From Candidatus Aminicenantes bacterium (GTDB lineage Bacteria; Acidobacteriota; Aminicenantia; Aminicenantales; Aminicenantaceae), in the NCBI GenBank assembly GCA_014727835.1, contig WJMT01000102.1, positions 660-64,659 of the forward strand: a stretch of DNA of 64,000 nt, in the 5' to 3' direction. The position numbers and the translations under genes were made by a program. A model generated the notes under the pieces. It saw only the letters and a list, made by a program, of their open reading frames with translations. It searched no databases and was not told the origin of the DNA. Below, piece after piece: positions 20,720 to 22,642 of the stretch (position 1 is the stretch's first letter; each line of letters opens with the position of its first letter).

Positions 20720-21994
20720 TTAGTTTGATTGTTTATGGCCGGATTTGAGTCTTTGGTATTCTTTTTTCATTTGATCCAGGTCTTGGGCGAGCTCAAAAAA
20801 TCCGTGCCAGTGGGCGTAGTCCTGGCCCATCATAGCTGTCCCCATCCTTGCTCTGCGGCCCTCATGGTGCCACAGGTGATAGAAAATCAACTCGATTTCA
20901 TCGTCCCATGGATTGTCCTTTGTGATGAGATTGAGTTCATAAAGCTCGTCTATCATGGTTTTAGCAGGCTTGTAGTATTTTTCATTATAAGTTTGGATGG
21001 CAAGGTCGTACTGGTTGTAGAATCCATTGACCCATGAAGGGCTGTGGCAGCTCAAACAGACTTTTTTCATCATCAATCGGTTTTTTTCCCAATCAGCAGT
21101 GCGCACACTGAGAGGCCGTTCAGCCTGCCAGGAAAGACGCAGAGAAATGTTATGGGAGGTGGAAAGGTCGCTGATTCCAGACATATGACAGACAGCGCAG
21201 GTGGGAGCGGAATAATCTCCGGGTTCCCAGGCATCTGGGGCGCTGTCCCAGGTCCAGCTGTCTCCCTCAGCACGAGTTCGCTTGCCGTGTTTGGATTCCT
21301 CCCAGATTTCGATTTGGGGATGATCAGGACCCATATGGCAGGCTCCGCAGGTGTCTCCTTTTCTGGCTTCCACTATGCTGAAAAGATGACGGGTGTGACA
21401 GGAGGTGCAGTTTCCCGAAGAACCGTCAGGATTGACTCTGCCGATTCCTTCCTGGGGATAGTGATCTCCTCCAGGACGTCCCTTGTCAAATTCAATGATT
21501 CCGCCGTGGCATTGGACACATCCTGTGGCTTCGGGTGCTGTAGAACCTTTGCCCTCCCAGTCTATGGACATGCTTTTCAGTTTCTTGATGGAATCATATC
21601 CAATGGCATGGTCACTGGCCGCAAACTGTTCTGCCTCAACAGGATGACAGCGTGAGCAGTCCTTTGGAGTGGGTACAGAGGTGATGTGGACTTTTGTGCG
21701 GCGAAGGCCTTGGCACTGAAAGGAGTCTGTTTCATTCTTATCTGCTTGATGGCAGTCTAAACAGGTCACATTAGAGCGGCCATGGAGGCTGTTCTTCCAG
21801 TCAAGCACAATGAGCGGGTTTTGGTCTTGATGGCATGTGATGCAGTCTTTGCTGATTTGGCTGATTCCGCGGTTGACTTCAATGACTTTTTGGTTGAGGG
21901 ATCCCATGGTCTCTTGTTTTGAACTCAATGTCCAACCCATAATACCGAGGGATATGGACAAGATGACTATGAGCACATAATGAATTTGTTTCAT
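20720..21994 (-). CDS. octahaem cytochrome c of the hydroxylamine oxidoreductase (HAO) family, short form
   Basis: Eight CxxCH sites: CITCH, CLDCH, CSRCH, CVQCH, CTSCH, CGACH, CAVCH, CLSCH. HAO-like segments [22 protein letters not shown] and [18 protein letters not shown]. N-terminal membrane anchor or signal. GAGGAGG SD. Confidence 0.88.
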   Translation of the reverse strand: [424 protein letters not shown]

Positions 21995-22029
21995 AGCTCC
22001 TCCTCATTGAAACAAGGAATTTTTTCTAT

Positions 22030-22587
22030 TTATTCATAAGATTTTTTAATGTGTTTGTCTGTGAACAGAATGGGGGTGTTGTAGTGAACCATTTTCTCAT
22101 GACAGTCCCAGCACTTTTTTTGGATTGTGCTGTTCTGCCATTCACGGTGGGCAAGGAAACCTCCACGATTGATACTGGGAGGAGTGAGGTCTTGATGGCA
22201 TGTGATGCAGGCGTCTTCAAAAAGGTAATTCTGTTTGGTGTGGGTTTTTTCTTCCCAACTGATTTTTGAAGGATCTCCAAGATAATGAACCACCACATCT
22301 CGAAGCCCGGAATAGGCTTTGTAGGAATAGCGGGAAAGACCAGAAGCTGGCAGGTGACAGTCCACACAGTCTGCCACCACCCCATAGGGATTGACGGAAT
22401 GGCTTGACATTTCCCAAGTCTTCACCCGCACCTGCATTTCATGGCATCTCCCACAGAATGTGTTGGTCCCGGTGAGATTAAAGCTGAGATGAGTGAAGCC
22501 GATAAAGAACAGAGTCACAAATATCCCCACTAGAAACGTGACCACATACTTCCATTTTTTGATGAGCCAGCGAAAAAAGCGCATCAT
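22030..22587 (-). CDS. NapC/NirT/NrfH-family tetrahaem membrane quinol dehydrogenase
   Basis: N-terminal TM helix plus four CxxCH sites (CGRCH, CVDCH, CITCH, CWDCH). Lies 35 nt upstream of the HAO-like gene on the same strand. Confidence 0.88.
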   Translation of the reverse strand: MMRFFRWLIKKWKYVVTFLVGIFVTLFFIGFTHLSFNLTGTNTFCGRCHEMQVRVKTWEMSSHSVNPYGVVADCVDCHLPASGLSRYSYKAYSGLRDVVVHYLGDPSKISWEEKTHTKQNYLFEDACITCHQDLTPPSINRGGFLAHREWQNSTIQKKCWDCHEKMVHYNTPILFTDKHIKKSYE

Positions 22588-22614
22588 TTTGTTTTATCCG
22601 AAGTTGCTGACATT

Positions 22615-22642
22615 AGTATAGTGAAACGGGAGGGATAGTCAA
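22615..22642 (-). promoter_or_regulatory. sigma70-like promoter for the nrfH-like/HAO-like operon
   Basis: On the minus strand: TTGACT (22642-22637), 16-nt spacer, TATACT (22620-22615), about 28 nt upstream of the start codon. Confidence 0.4.

What the first reader, a model, noticed from the sequence alone, without database searches (positions are those of the whole stretch)
20720..22642. nrfH-like tetrahaem and short HAO-family octahaem cytochrome operon (candidate reductive nitrite/hydroxylamine module)
**Seen in sequence**
- A 185-aa membrane-anchored protein with four CxxCH sites is followed 35 nt later by a 424-aa protein with exactly eight CxxCH sites and HAO-type blocks: [22 protein letters not shown] and [24 protein letters not shown].
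- A good TTGACT-N16-TATACT promoter lies upstream.
- The protein ends about 25 aa after the last conserved block.

**Established knowledge**
- NapC/NrfH proteins oxidise menaquinol and donate electrons to periplasmic multihaem reductases.
- Short HAO homologs that lack the haem-crosslinking Tyr (the epsilonproteobacterial Hao type) work reductively on nitrite and hydroxylamine rather than as nitrifier HAO.

**Inference**
- This organism probably uses the pair for nitrite/hydroxylamine/NO reduction or detoxification instead of, or alongside, NrfA.
- The divergent hemerythrin/Fe-S pair next door fits an N-oxide stress theme.
- I cannot tell by eye whether the crosslinking Tyr is present.
Basis: partly seen in the sequence, partly recalled or inferred. 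Interest (0 to 1): 0.6.

Follow-up and report, generated by a model that had tools for sequence, protein, structure and literature searches.

The report
Quinol-linked Tyr-less HAO-type octahaem reductase operon
This is a two-gene operon for a membrane tetrahaem quinol oxidiser and a short eight-haem enzyme of the hydroxylamine-oxidoreductase family that lacks the cross-linking tyrosine; it is a widespread, already recognised kind of probable nitrite/hydroxylamine reductase, here found in an uncultured Aminicenantes bacterium that has no other recognisable nitrite reductase.

Summary
On the minus strand, a 185-aa NapC/NrfH-family tetrahaem protein (4 CxxCH, TM anchor, CxxCHxM) lies 35 nt upstream of a 424-aa HAO-family octahaem protein (8 CxxCH, PF13447).

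- **Closest relatives:** the best solved relative is the P460-less Ignicoccus octahaem cytochrome IhOCC. Campylobacter fetus epsilon-Hao is 41% identical and has the same two-gene layout.
- **Cross-link Tyr:** the Tyr of N. europaea HAO (Tyr467) and Kuenenia HOX aligns with His395. That column is H/W/Q in 98 relatives, never Tyr. The catalytic Asp-His pair is invariant.
- **Phylogeny:** the protein sits far from oxidative HAO, in a 16-member clade known only from metagenomes.
- **The pair as a unit:** the tetrahaem partner precedes hao in at least 57 of 72 loci across more than 10 phyla. The pair looks horizontally acquired: relatives of the host lack it, and no homologue in the phylum exceeds 47% identity.
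- **Host genome:** the 92%-complete MAG lacks NrfA, NirS, NirK, Hcp and haem-copper oxidase/NOR, and has no clear nitrate reductase. CcsA is present.
- **Neighbours:** the hemerythrin/Fe-S genes are not conserved partners.

Verdict: a new member of a known kind, the reductive Hao/NrfH-like module. The substrate is inferred, not shown.

The parts
22615..22642 (-). sigma-70-like promoter candidate TTGACT-N16-TATACT, about 27 nt upstream of the nrfH-like start codon
   Evidence: matches 10 of 12 positions and is the best site in 20400-23000, but the count of such sites in the region is at chance level. Function not shown.
22030..22587 (-). nrfH-like gene: 185-aa membrane-anchored tetrahaem cytochrome c of the NapC/NirT/NrfH family, the presumed (mena)quinol dehydrogenase
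   Evidence: four CxxCH motifs. PF03264, 4e-26. TIGR03153 NrfH scores 87.8 bits, below its 134.2 cut-off. D. vulgaris NrfH 2J7A_C, 7e-8, with K and D of 'YKAYSGLRD' aligned to 'FKAIAGARD'; the first motif is CGRCHEM (CxxCHxM), and residues about 14-36 are hydrophobic.
21995..22029 (-). 35-nt intergenic spacer with a GGAGGAG ribosome-binding site before the hao-like gene
   Evidence: sequence read directly. The same tight spacing occurs in related loci.
20720..21994 (-). hao-like gene: 424-aa periplasmic octahaem cytochrome c of the HAO family, lacking the haem-cross-linking Tyr (epsilon-Hao / IhOCC type)
   Evidence: eight CxxCH motifs. PF13447, 2.9e-30; 4QO5 gives 6e-43 (profile 2e-73) and NeHAO 1e-28; the Tyr467 column is His395, and Asp224-His225 is invariant; phylogeny; 41% identical to the C. 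fetus protein.

Best explanation
The two genes form one operon encoding a membrane-bound, quinol-oxidising, periplasm-facing reductase.

**How it most likely works**
- The 185-aa NrfH-like tetrahaem protein is anchored by one N-terminal helix. It takes electrons from the (mena)quinol pool at its Met-ligated haem 1.
- It passes them to the 424-aa octahaem protein, which is Sec-exported and matured by the CcsA-type system II.
- The octahaem protein has the HAO haem scaffold and the distal Asp-His pair. It lacks the Tyr that turns the catalytic haem into P460.
- It should therefore work reductively, like epsilon-Hao and IhOCC. The most likely reaction is nitrite (and hydroxylamine or NO) to ammonium, serving as an electron sink or for detoxification.

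**Shown versus inferred**
- Shown here: gene structure, family membership, absence of the Tyr, conservation of the pair, and the host's lack of other nitrite/NO reductases.
- Inferred: quinol as donor, complex formation, substrate, product and physiological role.
For: - **Family and motifs:**
- **Tyr absent:** verified NeHAO Tyr467 and KsHOX Tyr align to His395. The column is H54/W42/Q2 in 98 relatives.
- **Catalytic pair:** Asp224-His225 matches NeHAO Asp267-His268 and is invariant in 98 of 98.
- **Tree:** the protein lies inside the large clade that also holds IhOCC and the Campylobacterota proteins. NeHAO and Kustc0458 fall outside it.
- **C. fetus epsilon-Hao:** 41% identical over residues 28-419, with the same DYAHWHG motif and the same layout of a 185-aa NapC/NirT gene directly upstream of hao.
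- **Partner conserved:** present upstream in 57 of 72 loci, and by tblastn in 74 of 95 loci from more than 10 phyla. Also seen in L006, L007 and Thioflavicoccus.
- **Host inventory:** no NrfA, Hcp, haem-copper oxidase/NOR, NirS or NirK. CcsA is present.
- **Literature:** Tyr-less HAOs are reductases (PMC8042395). The reverse-HURM concept pairs HaoA with a NapC/NrfH-type cytochrome as a quinol:nitrite reductase (PMC3701875). Epsilon-Hao is taken as the nitrite reductase of NrfA-less Caldithrix (PMC5317091). IhOCC is an octahaem nitrite reductase without P460 (PMC9250108).
Against: - No activity, expression or structural data exist for this protein or its 16-member clade.
- The clade is separate from the characterised Campylobacterota enzymes.
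- A nearly invariant Tyr393 lies 2-3 residues before the cross-link column, and the AF2 model is too poor to place it (pLDDT 69, TM about 0.3). However, the reductive C. fetus protein carries the same Tyr, while IhOCC and Kustc0458 have W and V there.
- No recognisable nitrate reductase or Hcp was found. The Nautilia-type Nap-Hao-Hcp pathway is therefore not encoded, and nitrite would have to come from outside.
- NeHAO distal Tyr334 is not conserved (Arg293).
- The NrfH-like protein scores below the NrfH equivalog cut-off.
Confidence: 0.72

Rival explanations
1. The enzyme is an NO-forming nitrite reductase, carrying out a one-electron reduction like Kuenenia HAOr (Kustc0458), and not an ammonium-forming one.
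For: HAOr also lacks the Tyr and makes NO from nitrite (PMC8042395). Kustc0458 is a significant homologue (2.7e-23, 3e-41).
Against: Kustc0458 lies outside the clade on a very long branch, and its partner is a dihaem protein, not an NrfH-type one. The host has no NOR or haem-copper oxidase and no Hcp to handle NO, so making NO would be self-poisoning. Epsilon-Hao enzymes are reported to reduce nitrite and hydroxylamine (PMC8042395, citing Haase 2017).
Confidence: 0.1
2. The physiological substrate is not a nitrogen oxide. The pair might reduce sulfite, polysulfide, tetrathionate or another oxidant, or it might act only as a quinol-to-periplasm electron-transfer wire.
For: The family is heavily represented in sulfate reducers and sediment anaerobes. 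The host encodes no nitrate reductase to supply nitrite. Multihaem reductases are often promiscuous (PMC9250108, PMC5276818).
Against: There is no significant similarity to MccA or OTR and no CxxCK or Cu-site signature. The HAO-type distal Asp-His pair is invariant, which argues for a catalytic site like that of N-oxide-converting relatives. The nearest characterised relatives all act on nitrite or hydroxylamine.
Confidence: 0.13
3. The enzyme is an oxidative hydroxylamine or hydrazine dehydrogenase, as some database names ('hydroxylamine dehydrogenase') imply.
For: It belongs to the HAO family. JGI names some relatives this way.
Against: The cross-linking Tyr is absent. The hydrazine_HDH model scores 70.8 bits against a 900-bit cut-off. 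The protein lies far from NeHAO in the tree. The host has no haem-copper oxidase and looks like an anaerobe. Tyr-less HAOs do not oxidise NH2OH or N2H4 (PMC8042395).
Confidence: 0.02

Closest known systems
Epsilon-Hao of Campylobacterota (e.g. Campylobacter fetus; Haase et al. 2017, as cited in PMC8042395) with its NapC/NrfH-type partner; the 'reverse-HURM' module of Nautilia profundicola (PMC3701875)
   Same: - Eight haems, about 420-460 aa, no cross-link Tyr.
- The same DY[AS]HWHG C-terminal motif and the invariant Asp-His pair.
- 41% identity over the full length.
- In C. fetus, a 185-aa NapC/NirT-family gene lies immediately upstream, as it does here.
   Different: - The window protein sits in a different, well-supported clade.
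- It is shorter, lacking about 25 residues between the haem 7 and haem 8 motifs and another segment around residue 150.
- The host is an Aminicenantes bacterium with no Nap and no Hcp, so the full Nautilia-type pathway is not present.
- No Crp/Fnr gene lies upstream.
IhOCC, the octahaem cytochrome c of Ignicoccus hospitalis (PDB 4QO5; Parey et al. 2016, described in PMC9250108 as an octahaem nitrite reductase without P460)
   Same: - Best solved-structure match by sequence (6e-43; profile 2e-73) and by fold ranking.
- Shares the long insert with 'GxGRxNPDGSxG' between the haem 4 and haem 5 motifs.
- No cross-link Tyr.
- A weak sister position in the tree (SH-aLRT 83, long branch).
   Different: - IhOCC is archaeal and 521 aa long.
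- It has an insert of about 90 residues (306-392) that the window protein lacks.
- It has Asp-Val instead of Asp-His, and Trp instead of Tyr393.
- Identity in the Foldseek alignment is only about 24%.
NrfHA menaquinol:nitrite oxidoreductase (Desulfovibrio vulgaris, PDB 2J7A)
   Same: - The same logic: a membrane tetrahaem NrfH-type quinol dehydrogenase encoded just upstream of a periplasmic multihaem reductase.
- The partner shares CxxCHxM at haem 1 and the aligned Lys/Asp near the quinol site.
   Different: - The catalytic subunit here is an HAO-type octahaem protein with a His-ligated catalytic haem, not pentahaem NrfA with CxxCK.
- There is no PF02335 match in the genome.
- The partner scores below the NrfH equivalog cut-off.
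Oxidative HAO / HOX / HDH of nitrifiers and anammox bacteria (PDB 1FGJ, 4FAS, 4N4J, 6HIF)
   Same: The HAO fold family, eight haems, the Asp-His distal pair and the C-terminal helices.
   Different: - The Tyr cross-link is absent.
- The window protein lacks the roughly 50-residue segment before the last helices and the C-terminal membrane tail of NeHAO.
- It is very distant in the tree.

Membership tests
HAO family of octahaem cytochromes c (Pfam PF13447; 'clade 1' of PMC9250108) | Eight CxxCH haem-binding motifs in one polypeptide | tested here: met
   exactly 8 CxxCH motifs and no CxxCK.
HAO family of octahaem cytochromes c (Pfam PF13447; 'clade 1' of PMC9250108) | Significant profile and sequence match to HAO-family models and solved members | tested here: met
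   PF13447 scores 105.9 bits against a 21.9-bit cut-off; 4QO5, 1FGJ, 4N4J, 6H5L and 6HIF all match at E <= 1e-12.
HAO family of octahaem cytochromes c (Pfam PF13447; 'clade 1' of PMC9250108) | Distal Asp-His pair following the haem 6 motif (NeHAO Asp267-His268) | tested here: met
   Asp224-His225 aligned and invariant in 98 of 98 relatives.
HAO family of octahaem cytochromes c (Pfam PF13447; 'clade 1' of PMC9250108) | Three long C-terminal oligomerisation helices | tested here: met
   predicted helices 319-353, 366-387 and 391-418, with pLDDT about 80-94. The oligomeric state itself is not testable here.
Oxidative P460-type HAO/HOX/HDH | Tyr that cross-links to the catalytic haem of the neighbouring subunit (NeHAO Tyr467, KsHOX Tyr451) | tested here: not met
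   the column holds His395 (an ungapped reading gives Trp396). The family column is H54/W42/Q2, with no Tyr. Tyr393 lies 2 columns upstream and aligns to NeHAO Trp465.
Oxidative P460-type HAO/HOX/HDH | Phylogenetic grouping with nitrifier or anammox enzymes, or reaching the equivalog model score | tested here: not met
   NeHAO lies outside the clade. NF052343 hydrazine_HDH scores 70.8 bits against a 900-bit cut-off.
Epsilon-Hao / reverse-HURM type reductive Hao module | HAO homologue lacking the cross-link Tyr | tested here: met
Epsilon-Hao / reverse-HURM type reductive Hao module | NapC/NrfH-family tetrahaem quinol dehydrogenase as redox partner | tested here: met
   PF03264. The gene is adjacent and co-oriented with a 35-nt gap. 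The pairing is conserved. Physical interaction is not testable here.
Epsilon-Hao / reverse-HURM type reductive Hao module | Nitrite/hydroxylamine reductase activity with negligible NH2OH oxidation | not testable with these tools
   Needs purified protein. Reported for four epsilonproteobacterial enzymes (PMC8042395, citing Haase 2017).
Epsilon-Hao / reverse-HURM type reductive Hao module | Same clade as the characterised Campylobacterota enzymes | tested here: not met
   the Campylobacterota proteins sit in a separate 32-row clade (SH-aLRT 100). The window protein sits in its own 16-row clade (SH-aLRT 98). Identity to the C. fetus protein is 41%.
Epsilon-Hao / reverse-HURM type reductive Hao module | Accompanying Nap nitrate reductase and Hcp/Har hydroxylamine reductase (the full Nautilia pathway) | tested here: not met
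   no PF03063 match; of the three molybdopterin-family hits in the genome, the one scanned against NCBIfam (on C59) reaches no nitrate-reductase cut-off; the other two look NuoG- or Fdh-like by eye and were not scanned.
NrfH (TIGR03153) quinol dehydrogenase of cytochrome c nitrite reductase | N-terminal TM helix, four CxxCH motifs, CxxCHxM at haem 1 | tested here: met
.
NrfH (TIGR03153) quinol dehydrogenase of cytochrome c nitrite reductase | Score above the equivalog cut-off and an NrfA partner | tested here: not met
   87.8 bits against a 134.2-bit cut-off; no NrfA in the genome. The protein is therefore NrfH-like, not NrfH proper.
Octahaem tetrathionate reductase (OTR), sulfite reductase MccA, octahaem nitrite reductase ONR | Sequence or fold similarity; CxxCK (ONR) or N-terminal-module catalytic haem / Cu site (MccA) | tested here: not met
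   ONR 3SXQ gives E = 0.83, and OTR and MccA are not listed. MccA gives E = 4; no CxxCK.

The most novel reading that the evidence does not exclude
The window protein and its 16 or so metagenome-only relatives are the shortest members of the HAO family (417-433 aa). They may form a distinct, uncharacterised lineage of Tyr-less Hao that travels with its own NrfH-like partner as a two-gene cassette between unrelated anaerobes. In NrfA-, NirS/K-, NOR- and Hcp-less fermenters such as this Aminicenantes bacterium, it may be the sole, stand-alone nitrite-to-ammonium (or hydroxylamine/NO) reductase. That would be a source of ammonification and N-oxide detoxification in sediments that nrfA-based gene surveys miss.
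Probability: 0.3. Interest if true: 0.45.

Novelty: new member of a known kind. Interest (0 to 1): 0.27.

Why it matters
- **Gene surveys:** Tyr-less Hao/NrfH-like pairs are common. Surveys that count nrfA for DNRA and count 'hao' as nitrification would misread these organisms.
- **Annotation:** database names for this family are often wrong ('hydroxylamine dehydrogenase', 'beta-ketoacyl-ACP synthase', 'ribosomal protein S20').
- **Aminicenantes:** this abundant but uncultured sediment group is usually described as fermentative. The operon would give it a quinol-linked periplasmic electron sink.
- **Limits:** the specific case adds a clean, horizontally acquired example and an uncharacterised subclade. 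It does not add a new mechanism.

Tried and rejected
1. **Reaching NeHAO Tyr467.** Local phmmer and profile alignments of the window protein, the family profile and a tail-bearing relative never reached Tyr467. I solved this by submitting my recalled NeHAO C-terminal segment to the PDB search. It was confirmed letter for letter against 4FAS 360-531, and the search also aligned KsHOX.
2. **Structure.** The AF2 model has mean pLDDT 69, with residues 201-298 below 50. Foldseek TM-scores are only about 0.3. The model confirms the ranking of neighbours (4QO5 first) but is useless for placing Tyr393 at the trimer interface.
3. **Hemerythrin/Fe-S as part of the module.** Rejected.
4. **OTR, MccA or ONR membership.** Rejected.
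5. **Vertical inheritance in Aminicenantes.** Rejected.
   - The same-genus genomes sampled, and the family and order genomes sampled, lack a window-type gene.
   - Other homologues in the class fall in other clades.
   - The best identity in the phylum is 47%.
   - The flanks of the closest relatives are only 26-46% identical to host genes, against 67% for hao and 60% for nrfH.
6. **nosZ.** The search is inconclusive because the control genomes did not match either.
8. **Regulatory elements.** No terminator-like site was found downstream of hao. No regulator-binding palindrome was found in the intergenic region, only a 14-nt direct repeat.
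Full report
**Observation**

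The window carries two co-oriented ORFs on the minus strand.
- ORF 22587..22030 encodes 185 aa with four CxxCH motifs.
- ORF 21994..20720 encodes 424 aa with exactly eight CxxCH motifs, no CxxCK and only one Cys outside the motifs.
- The two are separated by 35 nt that contain GGAGGAG.
- The protein ends 24 residues after the WHGFF motif. The window's clade has the shortest tails in the family, whose median is 34 residues.
- The TTGACT-16-TATACT site lies at 22642..22615. It is the best-scoring promoter-like site in the region and is well placed. The number of such sites in the region equals what shuffled sequence gives, so it is a candidate only.
- No terminator-like site follows hao. A convergent Ysc84/SYLF-domain gene ends 11 nt from its stop codon.

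**What the proteins are**

*The small protein*
- It matches PF03264 (NapC/NirT) at 4e-26. Its best curated model is NrfH (TIGR03153), but at 87.8 bits it is under the 134.2-bit cut-off.
- Its only significant solved relative is Desulfovibrio vulgaris NrfH (2J7A_C, 7e-8). In that alignment its 'YKAYSGLRD' pairs with 'FKAIAGARD'.
- Its first haem motif is CGRCHEM, that is CxxCHxM, and residues about 14-36 are hydrophobic.
- From my own knowledge of the NrfH structure, the Met of CxxCHxM ligates haem 1 and the aligned Lys and Asp line the menaquinol site. The alignment was tested here; the roles of those residues were not.

*The large protein*
- It matches PF13447, the HAO-family model, at 2.9e-30.
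- Its best solved relative is the Ignicoccus hospitalis octahaem cytochrome IhOCC (4QO5): 6e-43 with the single sequence and 2e-73 with a 32-sequence profile.
- N. europaea HAO, Kuenenia and Brocadia HOX, Kustc0458 and HDH follow.
- OTR and MccA do not appear, and ONR is at E = 0.83.
- A Foldseek search with an AF2 model gives the same order of neighbours. The model is poor (pLDDT 69, TM about 0.3), so I use it only as weak corroboration.

**The cross-linking tyrosine**

Local alignments never reached the C-terminal part of NeHAO. I therefore submitted my recollection of that segment to the PDB search.
- The recalled segment matched 4FAS residues 360-531 exactly, which places Tyr467 in 'GGWTYTEGWG'.
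- The same search aligned the Kuenenia HOX tyrosine ('NQTYGNG') to Tyr467.
- In two MAFFT alignments that join these verified fragments to the family (37 and 101 sequences), the Tyr467 column holds His395 of the window protein.
- Across 98 relatives that column reads H (54), W (42) or Q (2), and never Tyr. Kustc0458, which has no cross-link, has Trp there, and IhOCC has Thr.
- An ungapped reading from the GxA[HM] motif would put Trp396 there instead. Neither reading gives a Tyr.

One caveat concerns Tyr393, which is nearly invariant and lies two columns upstream, opposite NeHAO Trp465.
- It is Trp in 8 relatives and in IhOCC, and Val in Kustc0458.
- The Campylobacter fetus protein carries the same DYAHWHG motif. 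From my knowledge of Haase et al. 2017, that species' enzyme is among the epsilon-Hao proteins shown to be reductive. PMC8042395 cites the paper, but it is not in the library.
- Tyr393 is therefore very unlikely to be a cross-linker. Only a trimer structure would settle it.

The distal Asp-His pair (NeHAO Asp267-His268) is Asp224-His225 here and is invariant in 98 of 98 relatives. NeHAO Tyr334 is not conserved (Arg293) (one search gives the local alignment).

**Relatives and phylogeny**

The family is very large.
- More than 4,900 proteins passed 1e-5 among the 8,000 candidates scored in the big database.
- 1,511 clusters at 50% identity reached E <= 1e-3.
They come from Thermodesulfobacteriota, Planctomycetota, Chloroflexota, Gammaproteobacteria, Campylobacterota, Verrucomicrobiota/Kiritimatiellota, Latescibacterota, Nitrospirota and others.

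A maximum-likelihood tree of 101 sequences shows the following.
- The window protein sits in a clade of 16 proteins (SH-aLRT 98) known only from metagenomes and one unclassified MAG. These are 60-71% identical to it and 417-433 aa long.
- IhOCC attaches weakly next to this clade (SH-aLRT 83), on a long branch.
- The Campylobacterota proteins sit in a separate clade of 32 rows (SH-aLRT 100).
- Most homologues from the host's own class form a third, long-branched clade (SH-aLRT 100).
- NeHAO and Kustc0458 lie outside all of these on very long branches. Because they are fragments, their exact positions are unreliable, but they do not group with the window protein.
- The C. fetus protein is 41% identical over residues 28-419.

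**The pair is the unit**

- A tetrahaem ORF lies directly upstream of hao in 57 of 72 loci that have room for it. Some of the misses are artefacts of my crude start-codon calling.
- tblastn with the window's NrfH-like protein finds a homologue in 74 of 95 loci.
- The layout is the same in the two closest relatives found on long contigs, in Thioflavicoccus mobilis, and in C. fetus. In C. fetus a Crp/Fnr-type gene precedes the pair.
- Everything else around the pair differs from locus to locus.
- The hemerythrin has a homologue near hao in only 2 of 95 loci, at 26% identity. The 375-aa Fe-S protein gives only ferredoxin-domain hits.
- Those two genes overlap by 4 nt and probably form their own operon, but they are not part of this module.

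**Host and origin of the gene**

- The window's AspS is 73-78% identical to proteins labelled Candidatus Aminicenantes or Acidobacteriota. This agrees with earlier notes on this genome.
- The genome is a 3.1-Mb MAG, 92% complete with 2.8% contamination.
- In the host's class, 35 of 121 sampled genomes have a PF13447 match and 9 have NrfA.
- The two same-genus genomes sampled have no PF13447 match. The matches in the host's family and order mostly hit another part of the profile, in ORFs of 410-440 aa.
- Across 401 genomes of the phylum, 90 have a homologue, but none exceeds 47% identity.
- In the loci of the two nearest relatives, hao is 67-68% and the nrfH-like gene 59-60% identical to the window genes. 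The flanking genes match host genes at only 26-46%.
- Together these results point to horizontal acquisition of the two-gene cassette from an unidentified lineage. This is an inference.

**Metabolic context**

The host genome gave no match to any of these:
- NrfA
- hybrid cluster protein
- haem-copper oxidases, including NOR
- NirS
- NirK

The nosZ search was uninformative because the controls were also silent.

Three molybdopterin-family hits exist.
- Two look NuoG- or Fdh-like by eye; they were not scanned against the family libraries.
- The third is a cytoplasmic enzyme fused to a NifS-like domain. It reaches no nitrate-reductase cut-off.

Other findings:
- CcsA of the system II cytochrome c maturation pathway is present at a contig edge.
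- Only five ORFs in the genome have two or more CxxCH motifs, and two of them are this pair.
- The host therefore looks like an anaerobe in which this pair is the only recognisable N-oxide-converting enzyme. Nitrite would have to come from the environment.

**Mechanism proposed**

- Quinol is oxidised by the membrane tetrahaem protein.
- Electrons pass through its four haems and the seven bis-His haems of the octahaem subunit to the five-coordinate haem 4.
- There nitrite, or hydroxylamine or NO, is reduced, most likely to ammonium.
- Nine non-motif histidines are invariant or nearly so in the family alignment. That is enough for seven distal ligands plus the catalytic His225. This is an inference.
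- The literature supports the logic:
  - Tyr-less HAOs are reductases (PMC8042395).
  - HaoA with a NapC/NrfH-type cytochrome has been proposed as a quinol:nitrite reductase (PMC3701875).
  - Epsilon-Hao is taken to be the nitrite reductase of NrfA-less Caldithrix abyssi (PMC5317091).
  - IhOCC is described as an octahaem nitrite reductase lacking P460 (PMC9250108).
- The Nautilia-type pathway with free hydroxylamine and Hcp is not encoded here. A complete six-electron reduction, or a detoxifying role, is therefore the more likely reading.

**Verdict**

The refuting outcomes it named (a conserved Tyr, clustering with oxidative HAO, or grouping with OTR/MccA) were tested and did not occur. The thing is a new member of a known kind.

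It is mildly interesting for four reasons:
- its uncharacterised subclade;
- its apparent lateral transfer;
- its being the only N-oxide enzyme of an Aminicenantes bacterium;
- the frequent mis-annotation of the family.

Substrate, product, donor and physiological role remain untested.

Noticed in passing
window 22737-23270 (+) and 23267-24394 (+): A hemerythrin-HHE protein (177 aa) and a 375-aa protein overlap by 4 nt and probably form an operon divergent from nrfH-hao. The 375-aa protein has a weak TrmB-like winged-helix N-terminus, a CCCCGCCC motif and two [4Fe-4S] ferredoxin motifs. The pair could be a redox- or O2/NO-sensing pair, but it is not conserved next to hao elsewhere.
   Followed up: partly
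window 22612-22625 and 22689-22702: A 14-nt direct repeat (ATTAGTATAGTGAA / ATTGATAAAGTGAA) lies 77 nt apart in the divergent intergenic region. The first copy overlaps the -10 hexamer of the nrfH-like promoter candidate.
   Followed up: no
window 26538-27785 (+): A ChaN-like haem-binding domain (PF04187) is fused to a C-terminal PDZ domain and carries a signal peptide-like N-terminus.
   Followed up: no
host genome C59:10930-14331 (-): A 1133-aa cytoplasmic molybdopterin oxidoreductase (Fe4S4, Molybdopterin and Molydop_binding domains) is fused to a NifS-like class-V aminotransferase. The best NCBIfam hits (Fdh-alpha, PhsA, DmsA) are all far below their cut-offs.
   Followed up: partly
loci L049, L063, L074, L078, L083, L084, L089; proteins P0123, P0125, P0126: These Hao homologues are 700-800 aa long, with an N-terminal extension of about 300 aa and a ninth CxxCH. 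They usually have no separate NrfH-like gene upstream. This may be a fusion or a different electron-input architecture.
   Followed up: no
proteins P0020, P0030, P0040, P0048, P0067, P0094, P0097 (alignment A1, columns about 485-528): A subfamily (Latescibacterota and others) carries a conserved C-terminal tail 'GHGSPVY-VPGSGGK...' with a conserved Tyr. The window's clade lacks this tail. Whether the Tyr has any role at the active site is unknown.
   Followed up: no
genomes G021, G079, G091, G103, G009, G031 and others: In the host's own family and order, PF13447 matches cover only profile positions 1-178, in ORFs of 410-440 aa. These appear to be a different multihaem family from the window protein.
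   Followed up: no
proteins P0445, P0411, P0422, P0074, P0106, P0395, P0403: Public names for this family are often wrong. C. fetus and many MAGs carry 'beta-ketoacyl-ACP synthase', and JGI uses 'ribosomal protein S20' and 'hydroxylamine dehydrogenase'.
   Followed up: partly
host genome C6:2513-4861 (-) and C9:3616-5328 (+): These are the only other multihaem ORFs of the host. One is a 782-aa protein with 7 CxxCH motifs, a signal peptide and a C-terminal TM helix. The other is a protein of about 535-570 aa with 5 CxxCH motifs. It has no NCBIfam match, and its only Pfam match over the cut-off is the generic multihaem MtrC/MtrF-like domain (33.2 bits, cut-off 30).
   Followed up: partly
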